Of a stretch of DNA of 64,000 bases, positions 1-52,398 are shown piece after piece. How positions within the stretch are numbered: the first letter of the stretch is position 1; each line of letters starts with the position of its first letter. This DNA is from Bacteroidales bacterium. Its GTDB lineage: Bacteria; Bacteroidota; Bacteroidia; Bacteroidales; JAEINX01. The notes beneath the pieces were generated by a model. It saw only the letters and a program-made list of their open reading frames with translations. It had not been told where the DNA came from and ran no database searches. Location of the stretch: assembly GCA_016342645.1 (NCBI GenBank), contig JAEINX010000003.1, forward strand, positions 667-64,666. The letters are read 5' to 3'. The position numbers and the translations under genes are program-made.

Positions 1-1373
1 GCTTCTTCAATTTCATGGACTATTAAAGTTCCGTCTTCATAATAAACATTAAAAATCCCCTCCTCAGGTTCCCAAAATAATGTAATCTCCTCAATTCCCG
101 GTAAGGCATCAATGATTACCGGAGCCTCGGGGGGGAGTGGAATATTGCATAAAATATTTGAGGGTAAGGATTCCTCACCATTGCTTAAGATTTGTGTAAC
201 ATAATAACAGTATTCAATTTCAGGGTCTAAACCCGTGTCCGTAAAAGATGGGCCTCCAACATTCCCGGCTACTAAATCACCGTTTTCATAATAAATATTA
301 AAAAAGAATGATGCAAAATCAATTTCAACAATGCTGTAATTGTTTGCTTCGGGAGGGAAAAATGCTTCAACCCATGCACCTCCGTAGGGGTCGGAAAAAC
401 TTATATCGAATTTTGAAAATTCCTCTCCTTCGCTATCATCCCAGCACTTTAAAGAAATAGGATTTCCCGGTGTATAGCCTTGGCTTGAAACAAGTTCACT
501 ATAAGCTATTAAAGGATTGGATAAAAAATTCTGAGGTGTTAAAACTTCGGTAAGAGTGAAAACTCCAACCAAAATATTCCCATCGAAAATTCCGATTTCG
601 TCGTTTGGATCAAGATCGACTTCATCAATAAATGCTGATGATAAATAAATTGTCCACGCTGGGTAATTTGAATTTCCTCCTTCAAAGTTAAAATGTCCAT
701 CGCTGCTTTGCTGAATCGACTCCCAAACTATTGTTATTTCTTCATTTCCTTGAATTGTTTCAACTAAAACAGGTGTAAGAATATGCAATTTAAAATCGCA
801 AATTGTTGGTTCGCCTTCTAATACGATTACATTCATTTTTGTTTTCGAGAAATATCCGTTGGCTTGGACTTTTAAATTGAATTTCCCGATCGGGATTTCG
901 TCCAAAAAATATTCGCCTTGTGAATTACTTGTTGTTGAATAAGGTTTATTTTCGATTGAAATACTTGCGTTTGCGATAGGTTCACCGGTGATAGTATCGG
1001 AAATTATTCCTGTAATTGAACCTTTTGCTGTATGAAAATTAATTATCGGAATGCTGTATTTATTTTCTCCTTCGGGAAAAATATTTTCAGTCCATGCTCC
1101 GCCATAAGGATCGGTATAAATAATTTCAAATTCATCGACCTCTATTTCTTCATCTGCTTTCCAACATTTGAAAGTGACGTTATTTCCGGGGGAATATCCT
1201 TGATTTCCATTGTTTAAAAGCTGCCATGCTATTAAAACATTTGCAAAAGCATTTTCGGGAGTACATTCCTGAGTGAGAGAAAACACACCAACCAAAGTTT
1301 CTCCGTCGAAAACAGCAATTTCGTCGTTTTGAGATAGATTTAAGTTATTCAAACTTGCACCCGCAAAATACAT
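1..1373 (-). CDS. Secreted mosaic protein, 3' end cut by the window edge (paralogue of 6941..11032): two HF/GDEIAxFDG modules separated by a carboxypeptidase-regulatory-like domain
   Basis: Absent from the ORF track because it has no in-window stop. My minus-strand translation gives YTMYFAGASLNNLNLSQNDEIAVFDGETLVGVF...KCWKADEE...DPYGGAWTENIFPEGENKYS, then GSITGIISDTITGEPIANASISIE...GEYFLDEIPIGKFNLKVQANGY, then HFNFEGGNSNYPAWTIYL...NDEIGIFDGNILVGVF...DPYGGAWVEAFFP. The first in-frame ATG is at 1373. The signal-peptide ATG at 1484 is separated by frame breaks (see finding). Confidence 0.6.
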   Translation of the reverse strand, partial: MYFAGASLNNLNLSQNDEIAVFDGETLVGVFSLTQECTPENAFANVLIAWQLLNNGNQGYSPGNNVTFKCWKADEEIEVDEFEIIYTDPYGGAWTENIFPEGENKYSIPIINFHTAKGSITGIISDTITGEPIANASISIENKPYSTTSNSQGEYFLDEIPIGKFNLKVQANGYFSKTKMNVIVLEGEPTICDFKLHILTPVLVETIQGNEEITIVWESIQQSSDGHFNFEGGNSNYPAWTIYLSSAFIDEVDLDPNDEIGIFDGNILVGVFTLTEVLTPQNFLSNPLIAYSELVSSQGYTPGNPISLKCWDDSEGEEFSKFDISFSDPYGGAWVEAFFPPEANNYSIVEIDFASFFFNIYYENGDLVAGNVGGPSFTDTGLDPEIEYCYYVTQILSNGEESLPSNILCNIPLPPEAPVIIDALPGIEEITLFWEPEEGIFNVYYEDGTLIVHEIEE

Positions 1374-1672
1374 TGTATAAAAAGGAGCTTCGGGATTTCC
1401 TCCTGGAAAATCAAAATGTTGGGCTTGTAAATTCGTTCCGATAAAAAACAAAAGAAACGAAAAATAATATGTGATTTTTTTCATTGAAATTAAGGCGTTT
1501 TCATAATAAATTCTGAATTAAAGATTCTTGTCAAAATTAATAAAAAAAAATAACTATCTATTAGAAAGATTATCCCGGATTAAAAGGCTTTTAATTTGGA
1601 ATTAATTAATGAGTGCCCGACAATATTGTTTTACTGAAACACCATTAATTGCACCTTAAATTTGTGAAATTC

Positions 1673-1704
1673 TAAAAAAAAATCCCAAACAAAATGTCTG
1701 GGAT
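1673..1704 (-). terminator. Rho-independent terminator candidate downstream of 1750..2355
   Basis: On the minus strand: stem ATCCCAGAC / GTTTGGGAT (8 of 9 pairs), a 5-nt loop, then a run of 9 T. Confidence 0.55.
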
Positions 1705-1749: not shown

Positions 1750-2355
1750 TTACTTAAGGTCTTTAAGATTTTCTTCCATTCTAAGAATGTTTTCATCGTA
1801 ATATTTCAAGTATTTCCTGAAGACTGTAAATGTTACGATTGCCCCGATTAAAACGCCGAATAATAAACCCCAAATAGACTCAGTTTCATCGAATACTGTG
1901 ACAAAGAATTTATTTTCAAAAAATACATGTATCGAAATTATCAGTAAAACAAAGTAGAATCCGACCACAACAAATCCATATTTAAATCTTTTTGTTGAGT
2001 TTCTGAGCATGTGAATTTTATCTTTCATTGTTTCTTTCAGATTTCCTTTAGTGGTATCAAATCCTTGAATGTTTTTAAAATACCTTAAATACGAAATCAG
2101 AAACGCTAATGTCATTACAAACAATATTGAATTAATTGTAAGGAGATAATAATCAGAGAATCGAGAAATTGAAGTAATGACTAAGTAGGTAATCATTCCT
2201 AAAGAAAGAACAATACTTAAAGCAAGGTTTAATTGAATTTTTTTCATGATTTTTTTGTTTTTTTTGATTAATATTTTATTTATTTCTTGATAGTTTATCT
2301 TAATAGATGAATCATCAATATTTTTCCAGATATTTTTTATTTCCTCTTTTTCCAT
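1750..2355 (-). CDS. Multi-pass membrane protein immediately downstream of the ECF sigma factor (possible anti-sigma or partner, function unknown)
   Basis: 201-aa ORF starting 2 nt after the sigma gene stop, with several hydrophobic helices (LALSIVLSLGMITYLVI, FVVVGFYFVLLIISIHVF, GLLFGVLIGAIVTFTVF). Confidence 0.5.
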   Translation of the reverse strand: MEKEEIKNIWKNIDDSSIKINYQEINKILIKKNKKIMKKIQLNLALSIVLSLGMITYLVITSISRFSDYYLLTINSILFVMTLAFLISYLRYFKNIQGFDTTKGNLKETMKDKIHMLRNSTKRFKYGFVVVGFYFVLLIISIHVFFENKFFVTVFDETESIWGLLFGVLIGAIVTFTVFRKYLKYYDENILRMEENLKDLK

Positions 2356-2356
2356 T

Positions 2357-2860
2357 TTAGATATTTTTTAATAATTGTTTAAGTTTATTTTTTGATCGCA
2401 TAATTTTTATTCCAACATTTGATTTTGATATTCCGCATATTTCCGAGATTTCGGAGTAAGATTTTTCATCAAGATACAATATTATTATTGCCCTCTCAAC
2501 TTCATTCAATTTATTGATTGCAGCATATAATTGTTCGATTCTATCTTCTTTATTATTTTCTTCATAATCTTGGTATGCCATATCTTTTTCAAAAATATTT
2601 TCTTTATAGACAATCTTTGAATTTTTTTTAAGCCTTACAATAGAGGTGTTTATAGCAACTCTATATATCCACGAAGCTATTTTAGATTTATCTCGTAAGT
2701 TATCTTTTGATACCCACAATTGATAAACAACTTCCTGAAAATTATCTTTTCTGTCTTCGGAATTTGAAAAATATGCCCTGCTGACTTTATTAATTATCCC
2801 CTGATAATTGTCAATTAGTTTTGAAAATTCCTTTTGACATGTATTTGTGTGTTTCAACAT
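2357..2860 (-). CDS. RNA polymerase ECF-type sigma-70 factor
   Basis: 167 aa. Region 2-like QEVVYQLWVS...WIYRVAINTSI and region 4 HTH LNEVERAIIILYLDEKSYSEISEICGISKSNVGIKIMRSKNKLKQLL. Confidence 0.85.
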   Translation of the reverse strand: MLKHTNTCQKEFSKLIDNYQGIINKVSRAYFSNSEDRKDNFQEVVYQLWVSKDNLRDKSKIASWIYRVAINTSIVRLKKNSKIVYKENIFEKDMAYQDYEENNKEDRIEQLYAAINKLNEVERAIIILYLDEKSYSEISEICGISKSNVGIKIMRSKNKLKQLLKNI

Positions 2861-6940: not shown

Positions 6941-9900
6941 ATGATTATGAAAAACCTTTACAAAATATTTTTATTTCTCCTGATACTACTATCATCAACA
7001 GTAACTTTCTCCCAAACAAACAAAATAAATACACAAAAAAACTCTACATCTCCAAGAACAGAGATTGCACCTATCCTGCTAAGTGCCACTCCCGGCATTG
7101 AAGAAATAAGACTTGAATGGAAAGCAATACCCGAAAACGGCAAAACAAATCAAACCCATTTCGGAATTGAAGATGAACATTGGACTATATCCCCTAACCC
7201 TTCAGGAGATACTTGGGATATTTATATAGGAAATGCAAGATTTGACGCAAAAGATATGGAAGCAGGCGATGAAATTGCAATTTTTGATGGTGACTTAGTA
7301 GTGGGTGTTTTGACCTTAACTGAGGTTCGCACACCGGATAATCAATTGAGTAATCCTTTAATTGCATTCGAATTATTACAGTTTGAACCGGGATATGCTG
7401 CCGGAAGTCCTTTCACCTTGAAAGCTTATGATAAAAGCCAACATATTGAATCAATAGGATTTGAATATACATTCAGTAATCCCTGGGGAGATGCATATAC
7501 AGGTGATGTTTTCCCGTATGGAAATGCAATATATAGCCTTGCTGAATTAGAATTTACAAGCGGTATTTATATACCTGAATTTAACATCTATTATGAAGAT
7601 GGGACATTGGTAGCCGCCGAAATAGAGGGGACATCTTATGCCGATAAGTTCTTATTTGCCGGACAGGAATATTCATACTATATTACACAGATTTTGGAAA
7701 GTGGCATGGAATCCAATCCATCAAAAGTATTATGTGCAATACCGGCGCAACAGCCTTTCGGAGTAATTGATGGTGAAATTACTAATGGTGTTGATCCTCT
7801 AAAAGGAGCAATTATTACAATAGAAGGTACTGAATATATAGCTACAACCAATAAATACGGTGAATATTTTATTAAGAATGTAGAACCGGGAGTATATCAT
7901 ATAAAAGCAAATGCTGAAGGATTTAAAACCGAAATACAATATTACAGTGAAGTAATAGCAGGAGAAATAACAAAAGCAAACTTTATATTAACAGGATTAC
8001 AAACATATCCACTAAAAACCGGTTACCAATTTATATCGTCACGCCTTATTCAGGAAAACCCCGATATGCTTAATGTACTTGAAAATAATCTAAACGATAA
8101 TCTTAATTTTGTAAGAAACACAGCCGGCCAAACATTGACAAAAATCGGATCGAACTGGGTAAACAATATTGGAGATTGGGTGACAACCGAAGGTTATTTA
8201 TTTAAAATGAATAATGAGGATGAACTAATAATTACTGGACAGCCCGTTAACCCTCAAACTCAGGTTAATTTATCAGCAGGCTATCAAATGATATCATATT
8301 TACAGCTAAGGCCTAATAATGCACTTGAATTGTTTGAGGGAGTATTGGATAATCTTGATTTTGCAAGAAATACCGATGGGGATATGCTAAGGAAAATAGG
8401 ACCTGAATGGATAAACAGTATAGGTGATATCCAAGCCGGAGAAGCTTTACTCGTAAAAATGCTTGCAAACGATGTTTTAATATATCCGGCTATTTTCAAA
8501 ACCTGTGGCGATCCCTTTACTGATGCGCGCAACGGGCAAATTTACAATACCGTATTAATAGGTGAACAATGCTGGATGGCCGAAAATCTTAATATAGGTG
8601 AGATAATAAACGGTATAGAGGAAATGACAGACAATAGCATAATTGAAAAATATTGCTATAACGATAGCACTTTAAATTGTGATACCTACGGAGGATTATA
8701 CCAATGGAACGAAATGATGAAATACACAGGCGATACTGCAAGGCAGGGTATATGTCCTGCAGGATGGCATTTGCCTACCGATTATGAATGGAAAATACTC
8801 GAAGGTAATGTTGACACCCAATATGGTGTAGGAGATCCCGAATGGGACGAAGAAGGTAAAAGAGGTTATGATGCCGGTTTTAATTTAAAAGCAATAATTG
8901 GTTGGACTACTCATGGCAATGGTTCTGATGTTTATGAATTTGCTACAATACCTGGTGGTATGTGGTACAAAAATGAAGGATACCTAAACATAGGTTACAA
9001 CGCAAGGTTCTGGACTTCTATGGGGTATAATTATAATAAAGCCTGGACTCGAAGCTTCTCACCGGAAAAGAAAACTTTCCGTTACGGTCGGAAAAAGGAA
9101 AATGGTTTATCAATACGTTGTCTGAAGGGTATTTACATATATCCACCCTCCTCGCCCGATCCTGAAGATGGAGCTGAAAACCAAAGCATAGAACACGATA
9201 TTTCATGGTTATGCACCGATCCTGAAGGTAATGCTACTTATGATGTTTATTTTGGAACCGCAGATACTCTTAAATTGGTTTCATTTGGGCAATCTGAAAT
9301 AACTTACGATCCGGGAACATTGAAACATAACAAGCAATATTTTTGGAAAATTATTGTCCGCAACATTCATGGGAATACTACCGAAGGGCCTCTTTGGACT
9401 TTTGTTACAGTAGATGAAGGGCCATGGGAATGCGGCGATCAGTTTTATGATTCACGAAATGGAGAAACTTACAACACTACTTTAATCGGCTGGCAATGCT
9501 GGATGGCCGAAAACCTGAATATAGGTAAAATGTTAAACGGTAATGAAGAAATGGCAAACAATAATATAATTGAAAAATATTGCTACGATAACGATCCTGC
9601 AAATTGCTATGAATTTGGCGGGTTATACCAATGGTTTGAAATGATGCAATATAATGCTATGCCCGGTACACAAGGTATTTGCCCTGACGATTGGCATATT
9701 CCAACTGATGACGAGTGGAAAATATTGGAAGGTACGGTTGATAGCCAATACCCGATTGGCGATCCGATTTGGAATAACAATGGTTCGAGAGGATTTGATG
9801 CAGGTTTAAATCTTAAATCAACAATCGGCTGGCGCGATAATGGAAACGGTTCCGACCTTTATGATTTTACAGCGCTTCCTGGAGGGTGGCGTTTAGAAGA

Positions 9901-11032
9901 TGGTAGTTTTGGCAGTCTTCTTAATGGTCAGACTATATTTTGGTTGTCGAGTGATTACTTTCAGGAGGCTTGGTACAGATCATTAAGGTATAGTAATGAC
10001 AAAGTAAGTAGAGGCTTAGGTTATAAGACTTTTGGTCGATCAGTTCGTTGTTTGAAAGGTAATCAACCACCCCTTGGTTCACCATCCTCTCCCAATCCTA
10101 TAGATGAATCGGAAAACCAATCCATTGAAAGTTATATTTCCTGGTTATGTTTTAAGCCCAAGGGCGAAGCATTAACTTATGATATTTATTTTGGCACTGA
10201 TACTACTCCACCTCTATTAGCCTCAGGGCAATCGGAGACAACTTACAATCCGGGGGTATTGGAAAATAGCAAAGAATATTTTTGGAAAATTGTTGCCCAC
10301 GACTCCAATAACAATTCTTCTGAAGGGCCTCTTTGGAGTTTTATCACCATAGTATCAGGGCCATGGCAATGCGGCGATCAGTGTTTTGATTCACGCAATA
10401 GCAAAACTTACAACACTACTTTAATTGGCTGGCAATGCTGGATGGCTGAGAATTTGAATATAGGTATTATGTTAAATCCTCATGAAGAAATGACTAACAA
10501 TGGAATAATTGAAAAATTTTGCTACTATGATGTTGTTGAAAGTTGTTACGAGTTAGGTGGACTATATAAATGGAACGAAATGATGCAATATACAAACGAC
10601 ACAGCAAGTCAGGGTATCTGTCCTGCCGGATGGCATTTACCTACTGATTATGAATGGAAAATACTTGAAGGTACAGTTGATAGTCAATATCCTGTGGGAC
10701 ACTCAATTTGGGAGCAGGTAGGAGGGAGAGGCCATGATGCAGGTCACCGATTAAAATCAACATGCGGCTGGCGTAGTAATGGAAATGATCTTTATGGTTT
10801 TACGGGTCTTCCCGCTGGTTTTCGAAGCACCAATGGTAATTACTACTACATTACTCAGGATGCTATTTTTGGATCTTCTTCTGAGTACGATAATAATAAT
10901 GCATGGTCTCGGGGTCTGGCCTACAATATCCCCGGAGTTTACCGATATAATAATAAAAGTAAGGGCAACGGTTTTAGTGTTCGATGCTTGAAGGATTTTC
11001 CCGGAAAAGGTTCAAAAAATAATATTGATTAA
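6941..11032 (+). CDS. Giant secreted mosaic protein: module A, CarboxypepD_reg-like domain, 2x module B, 3x Fib_succ_major (TIGR02145) domains with Fn3-like linkers
   Basis: 1363 aa with a signal peptide (MKNLYKIFLFLLILLSSTVTFSQ). Module A: HFGIEDE...GDEIAIFDGDLVVGV...NPWGDAYTGDVFPYG. CarboxypepD_reg-like: GEYFIKNVEPGVYHIKANAEGF. Module B pair: NWVNNIGDWVTTEGYLFKM and PEWINSIGDIQAGEALLVKM. Three CGDxFxDxRN...IGxQCWMAENL...YCY...GGLYQW...GICPxxWHxPTDxEWKILEG...S[VI]RCLK domains start at nt 8504, 9431 and 10370. The linkers read ENQS...YD[VI]YFGT...YFWKI...GPLW[ST]F. Confidence 0.85.
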   Translation: MIMKNLYKIFLFLLILLSSTVTFSQTNKINTQKNSTSPRTEIAPILLSATPGIEEIRLEWKAIPENGKTNQTHFGIEDEHWTISPNPSGDTWDIYIGNARFDAKDMEAGDEIAIFDGDLVVGVLTLTEVRTPDNQLSNPLIAFELLQFEPGYAAGSPFTLKAYDKSQHIESIGFEYTFSNPWGDAYTGDVFPYGNAIYSLAELEFTSGIYIPEFNIYYEDGTLVAAEIEGTSYADKFLFAGQEYSYYITQILESGMESNPSKVLCAIPAQQPFGVIDGEITNGVDPLKGAIITIEGTEYIATTNKYGEYFIKNVEPGVYHIKANAEGFKTEIQYYSEVIAGEITKANFILTGLQTYPLKTGYQFISSRLIQENPDMLNVLENNLNDNLNFVRNTAGQTLTKIGSNWVNNIGDWVTTEGYLFKMNNEDELIITGQPVNPQTQVNLSAGYQMISYLQLRPNNALELFEGVLDNLDFARNTDGDMLRKIGPEWINSIGDIQAGEALLVKMLANDVLIYPAIFKTCGDPFTDARNGQIYNTVLIGEQCWMAENLNIGEIINGIEEMTDNSIIEKYCYNDSTLNCDTYGGLYQWNEMMKYTGDTARQGICPAGWHLPTDYEWKILEGNVDTQYGVGDPEWDEEGKRGYDAGFNLKAIIGWTTHGNGSDVYEFATIPGGMWYKNEGYLNIGYNARFWTSMGYNYNKAWTRSFSPEKKTFRYGRKKENGLSIRCLKGIYIYPPSSPDPEDGAENQSIEHDISWLCTDPEGNATYDVYFGTADTLKLVSFGQSEITYDPGTLKHNKQYFWKIIVRNIHGNTTEGPLWTFVTVDEGPWECGDQFYDSRNGETYNTTLIGWQCWMAENLNIGKMLNGNEEMANNNIIEKYCYDNDPANCYEFGGLYQWFEMMQYNAMPGTQGICPDDWHIPTDDEWKILEGTVDSQYPIGDPIWNNNGSRGFDAGLNLKSTIGWRDNGNGSDLYDFTALPGGWRLEDGSFGSLLNGQTIFWLSSDYFQEAWYRSLRYSNDKVSRGLGYKTFGRSVRCLKGNQPPLGSPSSPNPIDESENQSIESYISWLCFKPKGEALTYDIYFGTDTTPPLLASGQSETTYNPGVLENSKEYFWKIVAHDSNNNSSEGPLWSFITIVSGPWQCGDQCFDSRNSKTYNTTLIGWQCWMAENLNIGIMLNPHEEMTNNGIIEKFCYYDVVESCYELGGLYKWNEMMQYTNDTASQGICPAGWHLPTDYEWKILEGTVDSQYPVGHSIWEQVGGRGHDAGHRLKSTCGWRSNGNDLYGFTGLPAGFRSTNGNYYYITQDAIFGSSSEYDNNNAWSRGLAYNIPGVYRYNNKSKGNGFSVRCLKDFPGKGSKNNID

Positions 11033-11379: not shown

Positions 11380-13251
11380 TTATTTAATAACCACTTTCTT
11401 TACGGTATTAAAATTCTCTCCTATACAACGTACAAAATAAACACCCGGAGTTAGATCACTTAAATCAAATTGAGTTGAATTTTCACTCATTTTGAAATTA
11501 CGACATGCTTTACCCTGCATATTGGTAATTATTAATTGAATATTACCGGAATGATTATTAATGGAAATATTAAATATTCCTTCGGATGGATTAGGACTGA
11601 TTGTAATTTCATTCTCCATTTCAATTGTAGATGATTTTTCGAATTTTGCAGAATTTATTAGAGTATATTCCATATCACCTTTCGGGAATGCTTTTCTAGT
11701 GTATGCATTTCCATAAGGATTTGCACACGAGAAATTATTAATTACAAATTCTTTCTCAAGGCTTTTATCCCAAACTTTTATTGTCGGTGTCATTCCCACT
11801 TTATAAAGATTGCTAAAAACAGGGATAGAATTATCTAATATTGAATCGGATTGAATAACCCCTGCACCGGCAAGAGTTTCTCCAAAATAAACGCCTATTT
11901 CATCTCCTATTTCAAATTCACCTTTATCAAAAAAAATAGTCCAGATATCTTGTGATGGATCACCAAATTCAACAATAAAATGTTTTGGTGAAAGCCTGGG
12001 TTTACTATTTTTTGACCGTTTTGATGATTTGGTTTCTTCGGCATCTTTAATACAGCGTAGGGATCTTCCCTCTAACTTTGAAACAGCAGTACGTTCCGAT
12101 CCATCTTCCACATCTTTTAAAGATCTAACAAACACTTTAGTAAGATCCTCGGGATTACGGTCAGATGTATAAAACTTACCCCAAGTTCCTTCATGACCAA
12201 AACTTCCACTACCAGTATTCCATGATTGGCCACCCGGAAGAGCCGTAAATCCTCTTGTATCTTGTCCATAATCGGTATTCCAATGGGTGTCGGTTTTCTC
12301 TTTTAGATTCTCTCCAACGTCATCACCTCGCCAGTTCCAAGAGTTCGCAGTAATAGTGGTAACAGTTTCTACTTCATTTTCTAAAGTTAACCACTCCGTA
12401 TCAGTTGGAATATGCCAACCTGATGGGCAAATACCTTGTGTGCCTGATGTTGTAACATATTGCATAATTTCATTCCATTGATATAATCCTCCGTAAACAT
12501 CACAACTATCTTCTATATCATCATAACAATATTTCTCAATAGTGGAATTGTCAGTTTGATCAGTATCAACATCAATACGAGTACCAACATTAAGGTTTTC
12601 CGCCATCCAACACTGATCACCTATTTGTACTGTTAAATAAACTTTATCATCACGGCTATCCGTAAAAGCATCACCACAATTCCAGGGGTAAATTAAGTCT
12701 TCTTCAGATTCCCTACTAACTAAATAGCCATCGCCCGGTATGCAATCTCCAATACCATTTACCCAGTTAGGGCCTATTTTACGCAACATATAACCGCGAG
12801 AATCTTTTACATAATTTAAATCATCGTCTTTTATTGTTGCAAAAGCTACCTCAGCGTCAAGATCATCAAAAGGAAGATAACTTACGTAAATAATATCATC
12901 ACAGGTAATAGGTGTCGTAACATCTATTACTTGCCCACTAAGTGTTAAAGTATGAGGTGCATATGATTTTACCAGATAACCCTCGGTAGTTACCCAGTCA
13001 CCGATATTGTTTACCCAGTTACCTCCTATTTCAACTAACTTCTGACCAAGTGAATTCTTTACATATTCCAGATCACCTAAATAATCATCAAATACAACCT
13101 CCATATCTTGATCAGTCATATCAATTCTGGTAGAAACGAAGGTAAAACCAGTAATATAACCAATTTCTTGAGGTATTTCTACAACTTGTGCATAAATAAA
13201 TTGTGTACTGATTAGGGTCAGTACTAACCCAATTCTTAATAATTTTTTCAT
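11380..13251 (-). CDS. T9SS-sorted mosaic protein: 2x module B, Fib_succ_major domain, module A, T9SS C-terminal domain
   Basis: 623 aa with a signal peptide (MKKLLRIGLVLTLISTQFIYAQ). Module B pair: GNWVNNIGDWVTTEGYLVKS and PNWVNGIGDCIPGDGYLVS. Fib_succ_major: CGDAFTDSRDDKVYLTVQIGDQCWMAENL...YGGLYQW...GICPSGWHIPTDTEW...SLRCIKD. Module A: HFIVEFGD...GDEIGVYFGETL...KVWDKS...NPYGNAYTRKAFPKGDMEY. CTD: ISPNPSEGIFNISI...LTPGVYFVRC...VVIK. Confidence 0.85.
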   Translation of the reverse strand: MKKLLRIGLVLTLISTQFIYAQVVEIPQEIGYITGFTFVSTRIDMTDQDMEVVFDDYLGDLEYVKNSLGQKLVEIGGNWVNNIGDWVTTEGYLVKSYAPHTLTLSGQVIDVTTPITCDDIIYVSYLPFDDLDAEVAFATIKDDDLNYVKDSRGYMLRKIGPNWVNGIGDCIPGDGYLVSRESEEDLIYPWNCGDAFTDSRDDKVYLTVQIGDQCWMAENLNVGTRIDVDTDQTDNSTIEKYCYDDIEDSCDVYGGLYQWNEIMQYVTTSGTQGICPSGWHIPTDTEWLTLENEVETVTTITANSWNWRGDDVGENLKEKTDTHWNTDYGQDTRGFTALPGGQSWNTGSGSFGHEGTWGKFYTSDRNPEDLTKVFVRSLKDVEDGSERTAVSKLEGRSLRCIKDAEETKSSKRSKNSKPRLSPKHFIVEFGDPSQDIWTIFFDKGEFEIGDEIGVYFGETLAGAGVIQSDSILDNSIPVFSNLYKVGMTPTIKVWDKSLEKEFVINNFSCANPYGNAYTRKAFPKGDMEYTLINSAKFEKSSTIEMENEITISPNPSEGIFNISINNHSGNIQLIITNMQGKACRNFKMSENSTQFDLSDLTPGVYFVRCIGENFNTVKKVVIK

Positions 13252-13282
13252 TTTAATTTTTTTTGTTAATAATTAATTTATT

Positions 13283-14248: not shown

Positions 14249-14440
14249 AATTAATTTATTTGATAAAAATGGCATCATGCTAATCAATAGCATTACATAT
14301 ATATAATGGGGGGATTTTAAACAAATTAATAGCATTATTTGTTTTTTATTTTTCTAATTACTAAACGGAATTATTCCTACACTAATTTTCAAATCTATAT
14401 AGGATTAATGATATATAATAATCCTTATATTCCCAATTTA

Positions 14441-15160: not shown

Positions 15161-15346
15161 ATTTTCTCTATTTTTTCTTTTAATTGCAGAAAATGAATTT
15201 TGTTAGCGCTATTTTTGTAATTTAAAAAGAGTATAAATAAGGAATGCTAATATTAGCGTGTAGATCATCATGTTAAAAGCTTTATAAAACAGAAAAAACT
15301 TTCTTCACATCTAATCACATCCCATATATATTAAAGATTTTCAACC

Positions 15347-15398
15347 CCCTCGAGGGCCAATTCAAAGGGTTTCAAATCCCCAAAGGGCTTGGAAACCC
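15347..15398. repeat. REP-like hairpin pair (ccctcgaggg palindrome + GGGTTTC...GAAACCC stem-loop)
   Basis: 10-bp perfect palindrome at 15347-15356. The 32-nt hairpin at 15367-15398 has a 7-bp terminal stem and an inner CCC/GGG stem. Confidence 0.6.
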
Positions 15399-19873: not shown

Positions 19874-22800
19874 ATGAACAAACAAAGCTTTATAATTTTT
19901 TTAATGCTTACGCTTTTTGGTAGTTTTTCTTTTTCTCAAACTATTACAAAGACAATTAAATTTGATATACCCGAAATTATTTCCGAAGACGATGGATTTT
20001 CGAGCATACTTTACAAAGATTCTAAAAACTTCGAAAATGAAGGCAAACCAAATATCCCTCATTTCGGTGTTAGTATGTTATTAACGCAAGGACACGAAAT
20101 CGCCAATGTAAAAATCGTATCGCAAACATATTATCCGGGAGTTGATGGAAGATCAATTAAAGCTGCATCAAGACAATTTCCCTTGTCGAATATACCCGAT
20201 AAGGATGATTATAAAGTTATTCCAAATAATGAAATATATTCATCAAACATAGCATATCCTGTTAATGCAATTGAAAACATCTCTACTCATTTTCTAGCCG
20301 GCCATTCAATCGGATCATTTTCAATTTGCCCGATTAGCTTCATTCCAAAGGCTAAGCATATTGATTTTACGAAAGAAATCGTATTGGAAATTACATTGAA
20401 ATCAACTTCACGGGCCACTAACGCACAGCAATTATTAAGAAATTCAACACTAATCGAAAATCGAATAAAAAACATAGTTGATAATCCTGAAAAGCTTTCC
20501 GATTATTCTTATGATGCTTCTAAGGATAACAGCCAAATGGATATTTTATTAATCACACAAAATAGCTTTGTTGATTCTTTTGAGCCATATCTTGAATTCA
20601 AACAATCAACAGGTTTTATATGTGGTATTAAATGCGTTGAAGAAATTTATTCAGAATACACAGGGCAGGATGATCAGGAAAAAATAAGAAATTGTATAAT
20701 TGATTATTACGAAAATTATGGGATCAGCTACGTAATTCTTGGCGGTGATGGCGACAATGATGGACTTGGCCAGAAAATTATCCCTCACAGAGGATTTTAT
20801 GGTTTTGAAGGTTTAGAAGACGAATATGACATTCCTGCCGATATGTATTATTCAAACCTCGACGGAAACTGGAATACCGACAATGATGGCAGATGGGGCG
20901 AAGTAAATGAAGCCGATCTTTATGCTGAGCTTGGTATAGGAAGAATTTGTGCAGATAATATCTCAAAAGTTGAAAATCATATTAACAAACTTCAGCTTTA
21001 TCAAAATGCTCCCGTAATTGATGATATTGAAAAAGCATTATTTCTCGGTGAATTATTATTTGTATGGAATGATTCAATATGGGGAGGTGACTATAAGGAT
21101 GAAGTTGCATACGGAAGCTCAAACAACGGATTCACCACTATTGGTTTATCTGATAATATAAGCTGTAACCGATTTTATGAAAGAGAAAAGAATTGGGAAA
21201 AACAAGAGGTTTTCGATGAGGTAAGCAACTATGGTGTAAACCTACGAAATCATCTTGGGGGCTCATACCTTAATTACAATTTAAAAATGTATAACTCTGA
21301 TTTGACAAGTTCAAACTTTCAAAACAATGGAACTAACCGTGGTTTTATGGTTTCTTATTCACAAGGTTCATATTGTGGTGCTTTCGATAATCGAGGGTTT
21401 TCCGGTTATCAAGGCGATTGTTTTGCAGAAACAATTACCTGCATAGAAACTGCCGATGTTGCTACTATTGGAAATTCAAGAGATGGTTGGGCGGATATTT
21501 CCGGCACCAATGGGTCCTCACAATATTTCGATCGCCAATTTTTTGATGCAATTTTTGGAGAGGATATCACAGCAATCGGTATAGCTAATGCCGATTCAAA
21601 AGAGGATAATGTTCCGTTTCTTGATGATTATATTATGAGATGGTGTTTTTATGAATTGAATTTATTTGGCGACCCTTCAATGGATATTTGGACTGCTGTT
21701 CCAACTGATATTATTGCTCAGTATCCTGAAAGTATTCCATTAGGAACAATTCAGGTAGAAGTTCAAACCGACGTTCCTTTTGCAAGAATTGCTCTTTTTC
21801 AGGATGAGGTTTTGAAAGGGCGTACTGTAGCCATCGAAAGCGGAGAAGCAATTATTGATTTGTTCTCTCCGATTATTAGTCAGTCAACGGTTTCAATTTC
21901 AATAATAGGGCATAATAAAAATCGGCTTCAGGATAATATTGAAGTTACATCCGATACACCTTATATTGTTTTTGATTCAAATGAAATTAATGATATTAAT
22001 TGTAATGGGAACGGATTACTTGATTACGGTGAAAATGTTTTTCTGTCATTGGGTTTATTTAATGTAGGAAATCAGGCCGGAAGCGGAGTTACAGCCACAA
22101 TTTCATCCGAGAACCCTTATATAACAATTACCGATAATACCGAATATTATGGAGATTTTGATCCCCAAGAGGTATCATTTATCAATAATGCTTATGCTTT
22201 TTTTGTTTCAGCAGATGTGCCTGATGGCGAAGCTATTTTATTTAAAGTTACGGCTGAAAGCGGAGAAACTATATGGGAAACTTATTTTTCAATTATAGCT
22301 CATGCACCCATATTGAACTTTGTTGATTTCGAGATTCTCGGCAATGGAAAAATTGATGTGGGTGAAACAACAGAAATTTCAATTAGTATCACCAATGCCG
22401 GATCAGCCGATGCCTATAATGTTATCACCGAACTTATCTCAGAAAGTCCATACATAACAATTAACAGCGAACCACAATCGCTCGGAACCATTTCTCCCGA
22501 CAACTTAGTTGAAACTGTTTTTAATATTACTGCTTCTGAAAATACTCCCCCCGGTCGGATATTTGAGTTGATTGTGGATATTTCCGATTATCTTGGAATC
22601 ACTTCAAGCAGCGAATTCACAGTATTAGTTGGACAAATACCGGTTTTCATTCTTGATTATGATGGAAACAATACTTCGGCACCTGTCATTAGGGATGCCT
22701 TATTTGAATTTGGTATGAATTGTGAGTCGGATACCTTAATGCCGCCCGATTTAAATAAATATTCAGCGGTTTTTGTTTGCCTCGGTATGTCTTTCGTTAA

Positions 22801-24626: not shown

Positions 24627-24650
24627 ATAGTTTTTACAATACACTCAATA

Positions 24651-40563: not shown

Positions 40564-40571
40564 ATATTTGC
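40564..40571 (+). promoter_or_regulatory. Bacteroidota-type -7 box TAnnTTTG (tatatttg)
   Basis: Exact match immediately upstream of the riboswitch P1 region. Confidence 0.35.
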
Positions 40572-40574
40572 TTC

Positions 40575-40785
40575 AAGTTATGGTGTATTTATTTTTGTTT
40601 TTAAAATAAGTCATAATAGGGAATCAGGTGCCTGATTTTTTTCGGAATTCCTGAACAGTTCCCGCTGCTGTAAGCTCTTTAACTTTTTGAACACACCTTG
40701 CCACTGTCTCCAAATTACGGGGATGGGAAGGCCTTCAAAAAAGTGAGTAAGTCAGAAGACCTGCCATAATTTAAAATAGTTCAGA
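40575..40785 (+). promoter_or_regulatory. Cobalamin (B12) riboswitch
   Basis: Conserved elements in order: AGGGAAtcaGGTG, GAATTCC, CCCGCtGCTGTAA, GCCACTG, GGGAAGGC, and the B12 box aGTCAGAAGACCTGCC. P1 candidate ttatgg (about 40579) pairs with ccataa (about 40773). Confidence 0.85.
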
Positions 40786-49114: not shown

Positions 49115-50713
49115 TTAATTTTTTAGGCAGCGAACAGAAAAGCAGTGGTATTTAGGTAAACTACTTCGGTAAATATTAAACCAAGAACATCTGAAATCAC
49201 GATAATATGCGCTATCCGAATTATTTTCGGTAGATGACCATAAATAACCATGGGATGTATGGAAATTAAAATTAGCTAAATAGGTATAATATCCGGCAGG
49301 AAGAAGGCGGAAATCATATAAATCAGAACTTTGACCTATCCACCATCCTGTAGTAGATTTAAGATTTTTACCGGCATCGTATCCGCGACATCCCGTATTA
49401 TTCCAAATAGGGTCTCCAACAGCATATTGGCTGTCGGCATTACCTTCAAGTATTTTCAATTCATCATCAGTCGGAATATGCCATCTATCAGGACAAATTC
49501 CCTGAGTGCCGGGTAAATTTGAATATTGCATTAGTTCTTGCCATTGATATAAGGCACCATAATAATTACAATAAATAGGATTATTATCATAGCAATACTT
49601 TTCAATTATTCCGTTGTTTGTCATTTCATCATCACTGTTTATTATTTCCCCGACATTGAGGTTTTCTGCCATCCAGCATTGGTCGCCAATTTGTACACTG
49701 CTGTAGATTTGTCCGTTTCGCGGATCAGTGAAATGGTCACCACAAATAAATGGATAAATCAGAATGTCATTAGAATTCATTTTTACGAGATATCCATCAC
49801 CTGGCTGCATATCTCCAATATTATTTACCCAAACAGGGCCAATTTTCCAAAACATTAAACCTTCAGTATTGCGAACAAACTCAAGATTTTCTAAAACATC
49901 CTGAAAAGCTTCTTCCGTATCTAAAGTTTGTTTGGATAAATATCCTATTAGCTGATAACCGGTAGATAAAGTTATAGGAGTTTGGGATTCGATTGGCTCA
50001 CCGAAAATAACTAAATCATCATCTGATAAAACTTTAAACAGATATCCTTCGGTATTTACCCAATCACCAATATTGTTTACCCATGTGGGGCCAATTTTTT
50101 GAAGCATTAAACCCTGTGAGTTTCTCACAAATTCAATATTTTCAAGCTTGTTTTGTAGTATGTTTTGGATATCAGGGTTTTCAGTAATTATTCGAGATGA
50201 AATAAAACTATAACCTTCTGAAAGTTCAATTTGCTGTTCATTGCTTGCAGAAGTAAAGCTTATTTCTAACATGCTATATTGCCCGTCGCCTTCCGGAAAA
50301 ACATTTTCTGTCCATGCACCACCATACGGATTAAGATATTGAGCTGTAAATTCTTTTCCTTCAACACATTCACTTGCATCCCAACATTTGAAAGATACAG
50401 GGTTTCCGGGATTATATCCACCACATGGATAATCAGGCCCAAAAGCTGGACAAGCATTCTCAAAAACATTATCAGGAGTGCATACTTGAGTTAAATAAAA
50501 TACTCCAACAATCGTATCTCCATCAAATATAGCAATTTCGTCACCTGCTTCCAGATCAATACCATCTAAAGTAATTCCTTGCAAAAATATAGTCCAGACT
50601 ATTCCACAATTAACACCTTCAAAATTAAAGTGCATTGCATTTACTTTTATTGATGATATGCTAATGTATATTAAGCAGATTATTATTAAATAGTTTTTGT
50701 AATATGTTTTCAT
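49115..50713 (-). CDS. Secreted mosaic protein: module A, 2x module B, Fib_succ_major domain (no T9SS CTD)
   Basis: I prefer the ATG at 50713 (MKTYYKNYLIIICLIYISISSIKVNA). Module A: HFNFEGV...GDEIAIFDGDTIVGVF...KCWDASE...NPYGGAWTENVFPEGDGQYS. Module B pair: PTWVNNIGDWVNTEGYLFKV and PVWVNNIGDMQPGDGYLVKM. Fib_succ_major: CGDHFTDPRNGQIYSSVQIGDQCWMAENL...GICPDRWHIPTDDE...SVRCLKN. Confidence 0.85.
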   Translation of the reverse strand: MKTYYKNYLIIICLIYISISSIKVNAMHFNFEGVNCGIVWTIFLQGITLDGIDLEAGDEIAIFDGDTIVGVFYLTQVCTPDNVFENACPAFGPDYPCGGYNPGNPVSFKCWDASECVEGKEFTAQYLNPYGGAWTENVFPEGDGQYSMLEISFTSASNEQQIELSEGYSFISSRIITENPDIQNILQNKLENIEFVRNSQGLMLQKIGPTWVNNIGDWVNTEGYLFKVLSDDDLVIFGEPIESQTPITLSTGYQLIGYLSKQTLDTEEAFQDVLENLEFVRNTEGLMFWKIGPVWVNNIGDMQPGDGYLVKMNSNDILIYPFICGDHFTDPRNGQIYSSVQIGDQCWMAENLNVGEIINSDDEMTNNGIIEKYCYDNNPIYCNYYGALYQWQELMQYSNLPGTQGICPDRWHIPTDDELKILEGNADSQYAVGDPIWNNTGCRGYDAGKNLKSTTGWWIGQSSDLYDFRLLPAGYYTYLANFNFHTSHGYLWSSTENNSDSAYYRDFRCSWFNIYRSSLPKYHCFSVRCLKN

Positions 50714-50763
50714 AATGTTTATTTTAAAATACAAATAATTTATTACAAGGTACTTTTTACATT

Positions 50764-52398
50764 TTAGTTTTTCAGGCATCGCACCGAAAAGCCATATTGA
50801 AACATATTGCCACCCCAGGTAACAGAGTTATCATTATAGTATAGTTTGTAATTATAAGCAGTATTTAGAAAACAGTGTGTAGAGGTCCAAAAGAAACCGC
50901 CTATACCCATAGAGATAAATCCACCAGAATAGTATCTATATCCACCCGGCAAAGCTGAAAATCCATAACTATCAGTTCCATAGCATGCTTCATACCCAAA
51001 CCACCTTGGGTGGTAATAAGTGTTGCAACTATCACTCAGAGGTGAATTCATTTGCCGGCATGATTTTAACTCATCTCCATGAGGTGAGCCTCCTCCTCCA
51101 ATATGGTCGATAAGTGCTATCCAATCGTCATTTGTTGATACTCTCCAGCCTGTTGGACATAGACCATTTGTGTCAATAACTGCATACCAGTTATACAATC
51201 CAGCATATTTATCTTTCCAACTTATATCATTATCATACCAGGCATAAGCTCCGGTTGTGAGGTTTGACCAATTACTATTGTTTGTTTCATTTGGTATAGG
51301 TATGCCGTTTTGATAAGAAGTAGTTTTTAGATTCTCCGCCATCCAGCATTGTGAACCAATTTGTACCGTCTGGTAAATATTGCCGTCAAAATCAGTAACT
51401 GTTGGCATACCTGGGCATGGTAAACCATTAGAAATTTCAAAAATAAGAATATCATCGGCAAACATTTTAACAAGATAGCCTTCACCTGGGTTACAATCTC
51501 CAATCCCATTAATCCAGTTTGGGCCAATTTTTTGTATAACCCCTCCTTGCGAGTTCCTAATAAAATCAAGATTATCTCCGATAATAGTTTCAAAAGCAAT
51601 TAAAGCGTTAATGGAAATTTCAGGAAAATAACTTACAAACTGATACCCTGTTTCCAAAGGAATCGGAGTTTCAGGATCAACTAAATCTCCACCGATAACA
51701 AACAAATCCTCGTTAAACATTTTTACAAGGTAGCCTTCGTCAACAACCCAATTTCCAATACCATTTACCCAATTTGGGCCAATTTTACGCAACATGTCAC
51801 CGTCAGAATTCCTGATAAAATCAAGATTGTCATTTAATAACGAAGCCATAACAATTAATATATCCGAATCTTCAGGAATAATATATGAGGATATAAAACT
51901 ATAACCTTCTGAGATATCAAATAGTTGTTCGTAGGGCGGGGAAGTAAAGGTTATTTCAATTATACTATATTCGCCTTCTCCAGATGGAAAGACATTTTCT
52001 GTCCAAGCATCTCCATATGGATCAAAGTACTCAACTGTAAATTCGCGTCCTTCAATTTCTTCACTTGCATCCCAGCATTTATAAAAGACCTCGTTTCCGG
52101 GATTATATCCATTATAAATGCTAGTGTAAGCAATAAGCTTATTACCAAAAGCATTTACAGTTGTACAAACCTGATCTAAAATATACATACCAACAATTGT
52201 ATCTCCATCAAATACAGCTATTTCGTCACCTGCTTCCAGATCAAATCCATTTAGAGTAACCCCTTGCAAATATATTGACCAAAATGGAGGATAACCACAA
52301 CCTTCATAGATAAAATGCTGTGCATTCAATTTTGTTGATAAAAAGCTAATTGCAACAATACATATTAGTATTAAATAATTTTTGCAATGTGTTTTCAC
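50764..52398 (-). CDS. Secreted mosaic protein: module A, 2x module B, classical-type Fib_succ_major domain (no T9SS CTD)
   Basis: GTG start with signal peptide MKTHCKNYLILICIVAISFLSTKLNA. Module A: HFIYEGC...GDEIAVFDGDTIVGMY...KCWDASEE...DPYGDAWTENVFPSGEGEYS. Module B pair: PNWVNGIGNWVVDEGYLVKM and PNWINGIGDCNPGEGYLVKM. Fib_succ_major: DFDGNIYQTVQIGSQCWMAENL...YAGLYNWYA...LCPTGWRVSTNDDW...SVRCLKN. Confidence 0.85.
   Translation of the reverse strand: MKTHCKNYLILICIVAISFLSTKLNAQHFIYEGCGYPPFWSIYLQGVTLNGFDLEAGDEIAVFDGDTIVGMYILDQVCTTVNAFGNKLIAYTSIYNGYNPGNEVFYKCWDASEEIEGREFTVEYFDPYGDAWTENVFPSGEGEYSIIEITFTSPPYEQLFDISEGYSFISSYIIPEDSDILIVMASLLNDNLDFIRNSDGDMLRKIGPNWVNGIGNWVVDEGYLVKMFNEDLFVIGGDLVDPETPIPLETGYQFVSYFPEISINALIAFETIIGDNLDFIRNSQGGVIQKIGPNWINGIGDCNPGEGYLVKMFADDILIFEISNGLPCPGMPTVTDFDGNIYQTVQIGSQCWMAENLKTTSYQNGIPIPNETNNSNWSNLTTGAYAWYDNDISWKDKYAGLYNWYAVIDTNGLCPTGWRVSTNDDWIALIDHIGGGGSPHGDELKSCRQMNSPLSDSCNTYYHPRWFGYEACYGTDSYGFSALPGGYRYYSGGFISMGIGGFFWTSTHCFLNTAYNYKLYYNDNSVTWGGNMFQYGFSVRCLKN

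What the first reader, a model, noticed from the sequence alone, without database searches (positions are those of the whole stretch)
1..52398. Six secreted mosaic proteins built from three shuffled modules occupy about a quarter of the window
Genes <1..1373(-), 6941..11032(+), 11380..13251(-), 19874..24391(+), 49115..50713(-) and 50764..52398(-) total about 15 kb. They share the same building blocks in different orders. The orders are A-CarbReg-A-...; SP-A-CarbReg-B-B-C-Fn3-C-Fn3-C; SP-B-B-C-A-CTD; SP-C25 peptidase-CARDB-B-B-A-CTD; SP-A-B-B-C; and SP-A-B-B-C'. Module A (about 120 aa) has the signature HF-x-[FI]-x-G-G ... W-[TS]-I-[YF] ... GDEI[AG]-x-[FY][DF]G ... VG ... [KL]-x-WD-x-S ... [ND]P[YW]G-x-A[WY][TV] ... 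FP-x-G[DE]-x-[YE]. Module B (about 75 aa) has GYQ[FM][IV]S ... LDF[VIA]RN[ST]-x-G ... KIGP-x-W[VI]N-x-IGD ... [EG]GYL[FVI]K[MV]. Module C is the known Fib_succ_major/TIGR02145 domain. I cannot place A or B in a named family from memory. A recurring toolkit grafted onto lectin-like domains and onto a protease suggests a dedicated, expanding surface or secreted system, probably adhesion or substrate capture, rather than unrelated genes.
Basis: partly seen in the sequence, partly recalled or inferred. Interest (0 to 1): 0.75.

Follow-up and report, generated by a model that had tools for sequence, protein, structure and literature searches.

The report
Unnamed carrier cassette on T9SS proteins
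Six secreted proteins in this window share two domains found in no family or structure library searched; in relatives these domains form a fixed block just before the type IX secretion tag on very varied enzymes and lectins of uncultured Bacteroidales.

Summary
Six genes (about 15.2 kb, 24% of the window) share module A (about 130 aa), module B (about 80 aa, always an adjacent pair) and the known FISUMP lectin-like domain. Pairwise BLASTP E-values run from 1e-10 to 1e-143.

A and B match nothing in Pfam, NCBIfam or PDB sequences. Confident AlphaFold models (pLDDT 92 and 90) have no significant Foldseek neighbour in the PDB.

The family is large. An exhaustive profile search finds 6,645 clusters at 50% identity. 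One related Bacteroidales MAG holds at least 49 loci.

Among the 150 best hits, 129 end in a T9SS type-A C-terminal domain (CTD). Their dominant layout is cargo–B–B–A–CTD with fixed short linkers. The cargo is very varied: GH18, peptidases C10, C25, M14 and M28, PAD, PKD, beta-helix and FISUMP. A second class, SP–A–B–B–FISUMP(1–4), has no CTD; g2, g5 and g6 belong to it.

So this is a general carrier cassette of T9SS cargo in one lineage, not a toolkit reserved for lectins and one protease. I infer that it acts as a cell-surface display pedestal. A shared ligand-binding role is the main rival. It is a new variant of a known kind, of moderate interest.

The parts
1..1484 (-). g1 (C-terminus lies beyond the window edge): SP, A (1020-1430), CarboxypepD_reg (786-1019), A (300-707), then further sequence
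   Evidence: It is 87% identical over all 494 aa to the start of P0062 (1293 aa), whose layout is A-A-A-A-B-B-A-CTD.
6941..11032 (+). g2, class II, no CTD: SP, A (7145-7570), CarboxypepD_reg (7772-7990), B1 (8003-8251), B2 (8261-8500), FISUMP x3 (8516-9130, 9443-10060, 10382-10996)
   Evidence: The roughly 100-aa spacers between FISUMP copies have no Pfam match above threshold.
11380..13251 (-). g3, class I: SP, B1 (12919-13167), B2 (12673-12912), FISUMP nested between B-B and A (12043-12666), pre-CTD A (11620-11994), T9SS CTD (11383-11628)
   Evidence: Por_Secre_tail scores 52.5 bits against a cut-off of 27.
19874..24391 (+). g4, class I: SP, C25 propeptide (19985-20434), Peptidase_C25 (20546-21685), C25_C Ig-like (21701-21943), about 430 aa unassigned, B1 (23252-23497), B2 (23510-23755), pre-CTD A (23777-24148), CTD (24149-24388)
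49115..50713 (-). g5, class II: SP, A (50240-50644), B1 (49991-50233), B2 (49739-49978), FISUMP (49118-49732); no CTD
50764..52398 (-). g6, class II: SP, A (51931-52329), B1 (51679-51924), B2 (51427-51666), FISUMP (50767-51399); no CTD. Tandem paralogue of g5 (44% aa identity).

Best explanation
The six genes belong to a very large paralogous family of Sec-exported, mostly T9SS-secreted multidomain proteins of an uncultured Bacteroidales lineage.

Module A is a beta-sandwich of about 125-135 aa. Module B is a beta-rich domain of about 80 aa that occurs only as a B1-B2 pair. Neither has a name in the libraries searched. Together with the type-A T9SS C-terminal domain they form a stereotyped carrier cassette, cargo-B-B-A-CTD. 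A FISUMP lectin domain is sometimes nested between B-B and A.

Proposed mechanism (inferred):
1. The protein crosses the inner membrane through Sec.
2. The CTD takes it through the T9SS translocon.
3. The CTD is cut off by the PorU-type sortase and the new C-terminus, just after module A, is joined to surface lipopolysaccharide.
4. B-B-A then becomes the membrane-proximal pedestal that holds whatever enzyme or lectin sits N-terminal to it on the cell surface.
5. The pedestal probably also stabilises the cargo during transit, as the Ig-like domain next to the CTD does in Porphyromonas cargo.

Class II proteins (SP-A-B-B-FISUMP, with no CTD: g2, g5, g6) carry the same block in permuted order. 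Their route to the surface is unknown.

Shown here: the modules, their fixed arrangement, their link to the CTD, the variety of cargo and the size of the family. Inferred: the pedestal and stabilising role.
For: - Module homology.
- No named family or solved relative. None of 105 homologues shows any Pfam family over the A or B regions.
- Confident folds: A has pLDDT 91.7. B-B has pLDDT 89.8 and pTM 0.83, which implies a fixed arrangement of the two B domains.
- Family size: 6,645 clusters at E<=1e-3 and 596 at E<=1e-30. The 79 best genome loci come from five Bacteroidales MAGs, 49 from one of them.
- Stereotypy in the 150 best hits plus the six window genes: B is present as exactly two copies in 153 of 156 proteins. 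The B1-B2 gap is 2-7 aa. The B2-A gap is 5-19 aa, or 179-247 aa where the gap fits a nested FISUMP domain. The tail after the last A is mostly 71-99 aa, which is the CTD.
- CTD link: 129 of 150 by local HMM, and 94 of 105 by Pfam Por_Secre_tail.
- Cargo variety.
- Position-specific subtype: the nearest neighbour of a pre-CTD A is another pre-CTD A in 125 of 131 cases.
- Precedent: Ig-like domains of T9SS cargo are essential for stability during secretion (Sato et al. 2018, as cited in PMC10202324).
- The account of CTD cleavage and surface anchoring also comes from PMC10202324.
Against: - g2, g5 and g6 keep A-B-B but have no CTD, so the cassette cannot act only together with a CTD.
- A occurs in arrays of up to 7 copies. 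It also has strongly conserved loop motifs (HF..GGN, GDEIAxFDG, NPYGDAWT..VFP). Both features are more typical of ligand-binding repeats than of a passive stalk.
- The high conservation of the B motif RKIGPNWVNGIGD across paralogues suggests a specific partner.
- At least one probable T9SS protein in the window (60584-63829) lacks the cassette, so it is not required for secretion.
- No T9SS machinery gene lies in the window.
- There is no experimental evidence, and I could not model how B-B packs against A.
Confidence: 0.45

Rival explanations
1. Shared ligand-binding (CBM- or lectin-like) modules. A, and perhaps B-B, bind one common insoluble substrate or glycan. Enzymes and lectins that carry them are thereby concentrated on the same particles or prey surface, for adhesion and substrate capture.
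For: - A is found in 1-7 copies per protein, often alternating with CarboxypepD_reg domains, as in adhesin or CBM arrays.
- Small SP-A-CTD proteins exist (P0004, L041), so A can be the only displayed domain.
- The conserved motifs lie largely in loops of the A model that have no regular secondary structure.
- The block works in either order and without a CTD (class II).
- The partner FISUMP domains are C-type-lectin-like binding domains (PMC5758913).
Against: - There is no sequence or fold similarity to any Pfam CBM or lectin family or to any solved structure.
- B-B is never multiplied and never moves away from its fixed place, unlike typical CBMs.
- The cargo includes peptidases, PAD and arylsulfotransferase, which have no obvious common polymeric substrate.
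Confidence: 0.3
2. Homotypic or heterotypic docking system, working like cohesin-dockerin. A and B-B bind each other between molecules. CTD-less A-B-B-FISUMP proteins would then dock onto, or travel with, surface-anchored B-B-A-CTD proteins and build multi-protein assemblies on the outer membrane.
For: - Every family member carries at least one A, and nearly all carry one B-B pair.
- The order is permuted between classes (A-BB versus BB-A), and a FISUMP domain can be nested between B-B and A. C-type lectin folds have adjacent termini (established knowledge). Both facts fit A and B-B contacting each other.
- Class II proteins otherwise have no visible route to, or anchor on, the surface.
- The B motif is very strongly conserved across paralogues.
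Against: - There is no direct evidence of any interaction. The same facts fit packing within a single chain.
- hhalign shows no relation of A or B to each other or to the CTD.
- No cohesin or dockerin match occurs in the six genes.
- Piggy-back export through T9SS has, to my knowledge, not been demonstrated.
Confidence: 0.12
3. Chance similarity, low-complexity repeats or an assembly artefact, so that the genes are really unrelated.
For: None found.
Against: - E-values reach 1e-143 between genes and 1e-65 per module.
- Thousands of independent metagenomic homologues share the same module boundaries.
- A syntenic contig from a related MAG carries the g2-g3 pair at 78-88% nucleotide identity.
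Confidence: 0.01

Closest known systems
T9SS type-A cargo such as Porphyromonas gingivalis gingipain RgpB (signal peptide, propeptide, C25 catalytic domain, Ig-like domain, CTD)
   Same: - g3 and g4 have a Sec signal peptide and a C-terminal Por_Secre_tail / TIGR04183 domain well above the cut-offs.
- g4 also has the C25 propeptide, catalytic domain and C25_C Ig-like domain.
- A beta-sandwich (module A) sits directly before the CTD. In Porphyromonas cargo an Ig-like domain in that position is needed for stability during secretion (Sato 2018, via PMC10202324).
   Different: - The pre-CTD block here has three domains (B-B-A) and matches neither the gingipain Ig-like domain nor any solved structure.
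- It is reused on dozens of unrelated cargo proteins per genome.
- It also occurs, in permuted order, in proteins with no CTD.
Gingipain / HagA cleaved-adhesin (haemagglutinin) modules of P. gingivalis (from my own knowledge)
   Same: Repeated non-catalytic modules are shared between a C25 protease and non-protease surface proteins exported by T9SS.
   Different: No Pfam Cleaved_Adhesin match and no fold match. The modules here sit in a fixed position relative to the CTD and accompany far more kinds of cargo.
FISUMP (Fib_succ_major, PF09603 / TIGR02145) paralogous families of Fibrobacter and Bacteroidota
   Same: g2, g3, g5 and g6 contain true FISUMP domains (E 1e-30 to 1e-116). This is a C-type-lectin-like domain of little-known function that is often extracellular (PMC5758913).
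   Different: FISUMP is only one of many cargo types in this family. The defining features are A and B, which are not part of the FISUMP model. No diversity-generating retroelement (reverse transcriptase) was found among the Pfam-scanned ORFs of at least 150 aa in the window.
Multi-modular T9SS-linked enzymes of uncultured Bacteroidales ('Candidatus Paraporphyromonas polyenzymogenes', PMC5831590; title and abstract only)
   Same: Large multi-domain secreted proteins with T9SS sorting domains in an uncultured Bacteroidales lineage.
   Different: I read only the title and abstract. They describe multi-modular cellulases linked to the T9SS and do not mention a shared unnamed pre-CTD cassette.
Cohesin-dockerin cellulosome scaffolding
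   Same: A possible functional analogy only: one common module on many different enzymes.
   Different: There is no sequence or structural relation and no evidence of binding. This is not a member of that system.

Membership tests
T9SS type-A cargo protein | C-terminal type-A sorting domain (PF18962 / TIGR04183) above the curated cut-off | tested here: met
   g3 scores 52.5 bits and g4 45.6 bits against a cut-off of 27. TIGR04183 gives 53.2 and 39.0 bits against a cut-off of 23. This holds for g3 and g4 only.
T9SS type-A cargo protein | The same CTD in g2, g5 and g6 | tested here: not met
   These three proteins end within 0-11 aa of the last FISUMP domain. No CTD was found by Pfam, NCBIfam or the local CTD HMM.
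T9SS type-A cargo protein | The same CTD in g1 | not testable with these tools
   The C-terminus lies outside the window. The 87%-identical homologue P0062 ends in B-B-A-CTD.
T9SS type-A cargo protein | N-terminal Sec signal peptide | tested here: met
   Judged by inspection only, because no predictor was available. All six have a basic N-terminus followed by a hydrophobic core. Five have Gln right after the likely cleavage site.
T9SS type-A cargo protein | T9SS machinery genes (PorK/L/M/N, Sov/SprA, PorU/V) in the same genome | not testable with these tools
   None lies in the 64-kb window. The rest of the genome is not available.
FISUMP / Fib_succ_major domain proteins | Match to PF09603 / TIGR02145 above the cut-off | tested here: met
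   g2 (3 copies, 276 bits), g3 (114.6), g5 (108.4) and g6 (123.4), against a cut-off of 33.9. TIGR02145 also matches.
Peptidase family C25 (gingipain-like), g4 | Match to PF01364 plus the propeptide and C25_C domains | tested here: met
   Scores of 145.8, 24.8 and 48.0 bits, all above their cut-offs.
Peptidase family C25 (gingipain-like), g4 | Catalytic His/Cys dyad conserved | not tested
   I did not align g4 to a reference gingipain.
Any named Pfam / NCBIfam family for module A | hmmscan match at E<=10 (single modules) or E<=1e-5 (105 full-length homologues) | tested here: not met
   There were no hits for the 7 A copies. No family covers the A regions in 105 homologues. NCBIfam gave only CarboxypepD_reg-type and CTD-type hits.
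Any named Pfam / NCBIfam family for module B | hmmscan match | tested here: not met
   Only scattered single-member hits at E>=0.076, such as HEAT. Nothing in 105 homologues.
Known folds in the PDB (CBMs, Ig-like, pilins, CTD) | Foldseek match at E<=0.001 or a PDB sequence-profile match | tested here: not met
   For A the best hit has E 0.028 and TM 0.33 (a streptococcal pilin). For B-B the best has E 0.016 and TM 0.13. Profiles of 32 diverse members gave nothing better than E 0.025 (SlpX), and Foldseek does not support that hit.
Cohesin-dockerin system | Cohesin or dockerin domains | tested here: not met
   No such Pfam match in the six genes. Cohesin appears only as cargo in 2 of 63 homologues.

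The most novel reading that the evidence does not exclude
A and B-B form a new protein-protein docking pair. Through it, CTD-less A-B-B-lectin proteins (g2, g5, g6) hitch onto or assemble with surface-anchored cargo-B-B-A proteins. This uncultured Bacteroidales lineage would then have a T9SS-based, cellulosome-like multi-enzyme surface coat built from dozens of paralogues.
Probability: 0.12. Interest if true: 0.8.

Novelty: new variant of a known kind. Interest (0 to 1): 0.5.

Why it matters
- T9SS cargo is usually described as a signal peptide, functional domains and a CTD. Here a whole lineage inserts the same three-domain block between cargo and CTD on dozens of proteins per genome. That points to a lineage-specific layer of surface display or attachment that current models do not cover.
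- The two domains make up thousands of database clusters that public records label only 'hypothetical' or name after their cargo. Defining them as families would improve annotation of environmental Bacteroidales secretomes.
- The domains have confident predicted folds with no solved relative, so they are worthwhile structural targets.
- If the cassette proves sufficient for stable surface display, it could serve as a display scaffold in Bacteroidota.

Tried and rejected
- Pfam at E<=10 on every single A and B copy gave nothing usable. The HEAT and alphaRep-type hits for B are short, inconsistent and helical, whereas B is predicted to be beta-rich.
- The NCBIfam 'Kustd1514 S-layer glycoprotein' hits in g1 and g2 fall on the CarboxypepD_reg domain, not on A or B.
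- PDB profile searches with 7-10 and with 32 diverse members gave only A versus SlpX 7qfk at E 0.025. 7qfk is absent from the 50 listed Foldseek hits for A, so I treat it as chance.
- The word-indexed homologue search returned only 13 and 46 short fragments and badly underestimated the family. The exhaustive search corrected this.
- hhalign of A against B, A against CTD and B against CTD showed no relation (probability below 1%). B is therefore not a degenerate CTD.
- tblastn of A-B-B against 50,697 phage records found no match. The single BFVD structural hit is marginal: 'putative hemin binding protein', uncultured marine phage, E 3.5e-3, TMq 0.53.
- 'Cassette-only' proteins among the cluster representatives (P0136, P0197) proved to be truncated gene calls without signal peptides. 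However, loci L003, L026 and L004 (SP, a short N-terminal region, then B-B-A-CTD) and L041 (SP-A-CTD) do have signal peptides.
- The exact-sequence look-up of g6 found no record of it in the collection.
I repeated it with the B alignment.
- I considered a diversity-generating retroelement because FISUMP domains can be DGR targets. No reverse transcriptase turned up among the Pfam-scanned ORFs of at least 150 aa, and I did not look for a template/variable repeat pair.
Full report
**1. The observation**

Gene 1 needs one correction. Reading upstream of 1373 on the minus strand shows that the frame stays open back to an ATG at 1484. This adds MKKITYYFSFLLFFIGTNLQA|QHF..., which is a signal peptide plus the true start of module A.

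All-against-all BLASTP of the six products gives E-values between 1e-10 and 1e-143 for the shared blocks. HMMs built from the seven A copies and ten B copies were run over the six-frame translation. They recover exactly those 17 module copies and nothing else, at 1e-32 to 1e-65 per module.

Pfam and NCBIfam confirm the known parts:
- FISUMP / Fib_succ_major in g2 (three copies), g3, g5 and g6.
- CarboxypepD_reg in g1 and g2.
- C25 propeptide, catalytic domain and C25_C in g4.
- A T9SS type-A sorting domain in g3 and g4.

The genes add up to 15.2 kb.

**2. What A and B are**

Neither module matches any Pfam model, even at E<=10. Neither matches any NCBIfam model or PDB sequence. This holds with the small window profiles and with profiles of 32 diverse members.

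AlphaFold2 on small alignments gives confident models:
- A is an eight-strand beta-sandwich with mean pLDDT 91.7.
- The B-B pair consists of two beta-rich domains, each with one short helix. Its mean pLDDT is 89.8 and its pTM 0.83, which implies a fixed mutual arrangement.

Foldseek against the PDB gives no match at E<=0.001 for either model. The best hits are generic Ig-like pilin domains for A (E 0.028, TM 0.33) and noise for B-B. Profile-profile comparison shows that A, B and the CTD are unrelated to one another.

**3. How big and how regular the family is**

The word-indexed search found only a few fragments. An exhaustive HMMER search of 1.84 billion cluster representatives with an A-B-B profile found 6,645 proteins at E<=1e-3, 3,304 at E<=1e-10 and 596 at E<=1e-30.

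I annotated the 150 best hits with local HMMs.
- 153 of 156 proteins (150 hits plus the six window genes) contain exactly two B modules, separated by 2-7 aa.
- A occurs 1-7 times per protein.
- 129 of 150 hits end in a CTD.
- The commonest layouts are X-B-B-A-CTD (69), X-A-B-B-A-CTD (18) and X-B-B-FISUMP-A-CTD (8).
- The B2-to-A linker is 5-19 aa. In about 20 proteins it is 179-247 aa instead. That length fits a FISUMP domain nested between B-B and A, as in g3.
- The tail after the last A is mostly 71-99 aa, which is the CTD itself.

Pfam scans of 105 of these proteins show Por_Secre_tail in 94. The N-terminal cargo is strikingly varied. It includes GH18 chitinase, peptidases C10, C25, M14 and M28, PAD, arylsulfotransferase, PKD, CUB, cohesin, beta-helix, Sortilin/BNR and other propellers, and FISUMP.

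A splits into two position-specific subtypes. One is a shorter pre-CTD type of about 124 aa. The other is a longer type of about 136 aa found at N-termini and in arrays. The nearest neighbour of a pre-CTD A is another pre-CTD A in 125 of 131 cases.

A second, smaller class lacks a CTD altogether and ends with its last FISUMP domain: SP-A-B-B-FISUMP(1-4). g2, g5 and g6 belong to it, along with P0104, P0105, P0107, P0124 and P0126.

g1 is 87% identical over its whole visible length to the start of P0062. That protein continues as ...A-A-B-B-A-CTD.

**4. Where it occurs**

I scanned one genome per GTDB species for the B motif IG[PSG][NVT]W[VI]N[GN]I. This gave 227 confirmed stretches. The 79 best loci come from five uncultured Bacteroidales MAGs: 49 from CAYWXI01 and 25 from CAZBSL01.

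One contig of CAYWXI01 is syntenic with the g2-g3 pair at 78-88% nucleotide identity, so the window comes from a relative of that MAG. ORFs in these loci show the same layouts, with B-B-A-CTD dominant. They include small proteins with proper signal peptides: SP, a short N-terminal region, then B-B-A-CTD (L003, L026, L004), and SP-A-CTD (L041, P0004).

Public records name these proteins after their cargo ('C10 family peptidase'), or call them 'T9SS type A sorting domain-containing protein' or 'hypothetical'.

In the window the six genes are scattered among ordinary housekeeping genes. g2/g3 and g5/g6 are adjacent pairs.

**5. How it most likely works**

Established T9SS biology runs as follows. 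The protein is exported by Sec and recognised through its CTD. It passes through Sov/SprA and is handed to PorV. PorU then cleaves the CTD, and the protein is either anchored to the surface or released (PMC10202324).

On this scheme the domain just before the CTD becomes the membrane-proximal end of the mature protein. In this family that domain is always module A, preceded by the rigid B-B pair.

Three features fit a carrier or pedestal role better than a role tied to any one substrate:
- the fixed position of the block,
- its fixed copy number and short linkers,
- its presence on cargo of unrelated function.

There is a precedent in the Ig-like domains of Porphyromonas cargo. They are needed for stability during T9SS secretion (Sato et al. 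2018, cited in PMC10202324).

I therefore take 'general display and stabilising cassette of T9SS cargo' as the best explanation, with confidence about 0.45. The descriptive part is close to certain. The functional part is inference.

**6. Rivals**

In its favour:
- A forms arrays.
- A can be the only displayed domain.
- The conserved motifs of A lie in loops.
- A-B-B also works without a CTD.

Against it:
- No similarity to any known binding module was found.
- B-B is rigidly single-copy.
- The cargo has no common substrate.

A more novel rival (0.12) is that A and B-B dock onto each other between molecules, so that CTD-less class II lectins assemble on anchored class I proteins. The permuted order (A-BB versus BB-A) suggests that A and B-B touch. 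So does the tolerance of a nested C-type-lectin-like domain, whose termini lie side by side (established knowledge of that fold). Intrachain packing explains both facts equally well.

Chance or artefact is excluded.

**7. Comparison with what is known, and verdict**

g3 and g4 pass the tests for T9SS type-A cargo. g2, g5 and g6 fail the CTD test, and g1 cannot be tested. FISUMP and C25 membership is met at the domain level.

A and B fail every membership test against named families and solved folds available here. The closest functional analogues are the pre-CTD Ig-like domain of gingipains and, more loosely, the shared adhesin modules of gingipains and HagA. Neither is homologous.

I rate this a new variant of a known kind: T9SS cargo with a previously unnamed, lineage-wide three-domain cassette. 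Interest is moderate (0.5). It is a real, large, unannotated pair of domain families with confident orphan folds and a testable role in surface display. So far, however, it is a finding about domain architecture with no demonstrated function.

Noticed in passing
window 13206-18084: A rearrangement hot spot lies between g3 and g4. It holds an IS1595-type transposase gene (13341-14237) and an IS200/Y1 transposase gene (17638-18084). It also holds a 1365-bp tandem duplication carrying two AraC-type regulator genes (14441-15160 and 15806-16525; copies about 83% identical). Copies of g3's start region (13206-13282) recur at 15548-15624 and 16913-16989. No intact ORF follows the 15548-15624 copy; I did not translate the region after the other.
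   Followed up: partly
window 18466-18747: A 42-nt tandem repeat with 6.7 copies and 90% matches. It is overlapped by ORFs on both strands (18383-19108 minus strand; 18429-18776 and 18506-18817 plus strand), none of which was scanned against Pfam; the adjacent 18849-19517 ORF has no Pfam match.
   Followed up: no
window 24498-24661 and 60314-60477: A 164-nt intergenic sequence is repeated in direct orientation at about 75% identity. It contains a well-conserved core, TGGTTCACGCAAAGCACGCAGA. One copy lies after g4 and the other between moaA and the GEVED/PKD protein gene. Rfam has no match at gathering score.
   Followed up: partly
window 60584-64000 (-): A further probable T9SS protein carries GEVED and PKD domains and a weak CTD (Pfam 22.7 bits, below the cut-off of 27; local CTD HMM E 2.6e-4). 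It has no A or B module. The reading frame stays open to the window edge and the called start has no signal peptide, so the true start probably lies outside the window.
   Followed up: partly
window 40564-40782: A cobalamin riboswitch (RF00174, 103.6 bits) lies upstream of a TonB-dependent receptor gene (40979-42889) and a DUF5074 gene (42903-43973). This is an ordinary B12-uptake arrangement.
   Followed up: no
window 29823-30581 (-): A 252-aa ORF whose first 27 residues match ribosomal protein Thx (E 3.8e-9). The rest of the ORF overlaps two tandem-repeat arrays (27-nt x3.6 at 30135-30233; 33-nt x3.3 at 30267-30374). It may be a Thx with a long repetitive tail or an over-extended ORF call.
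   Followed up: no
signal peptides of g1, g2, g3, g4, g6: Five of the six family members have Gln directly after the likely signal-peptidase I site (..LQA|QHF..TFS|QT..IYA|QV..SFS|QT..LNA|QHF). From my own knowledge this fits the Bacteroidota 'Q-rule', in which the N-terminus becomes pyroglutamate. In g1 and g6 the mature protein starts exactly at module A.
   Followed up: no
P0096 cluster: A 90%-identity cluster of an A-B-B-A family protein includes entries labelled 'Candidatus Magnetoglobus multicellularis' (ETR70945.1, UniRef A0A1V1P8B8) and 'Candidatus Magnetomorum sp. HK-1' (KPA13844.1). These are most simply explained as Bacteroidales DNA (contaminant or epibiont) in those assemblies.
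   Followed up: no
BFVD entry A0A8D9C8P8: The B-B model has one marginal structural match: a 587-aa 'putative hemin binding protein' of an uncultured marine phage (E 3.5e-3, probability 1.00, TMq 0.53, 14% identity). tblastn of A-B-B against 50,697 phage genomes found nothing.
   Followed up: partly
window 1750-2860 (-): An ECF-type sigma factor gene (2357-2860; Sigma70_r2 and r4_2) and an adjacent 201-aa ORF with no Pfam match (1750-2355), possibly an anti-sigma factor, lie directly upstream of g1 on the same strand. A GH38 alpha-mannosidase-like gene (3002-6373) is next to them.
   Followed up: no
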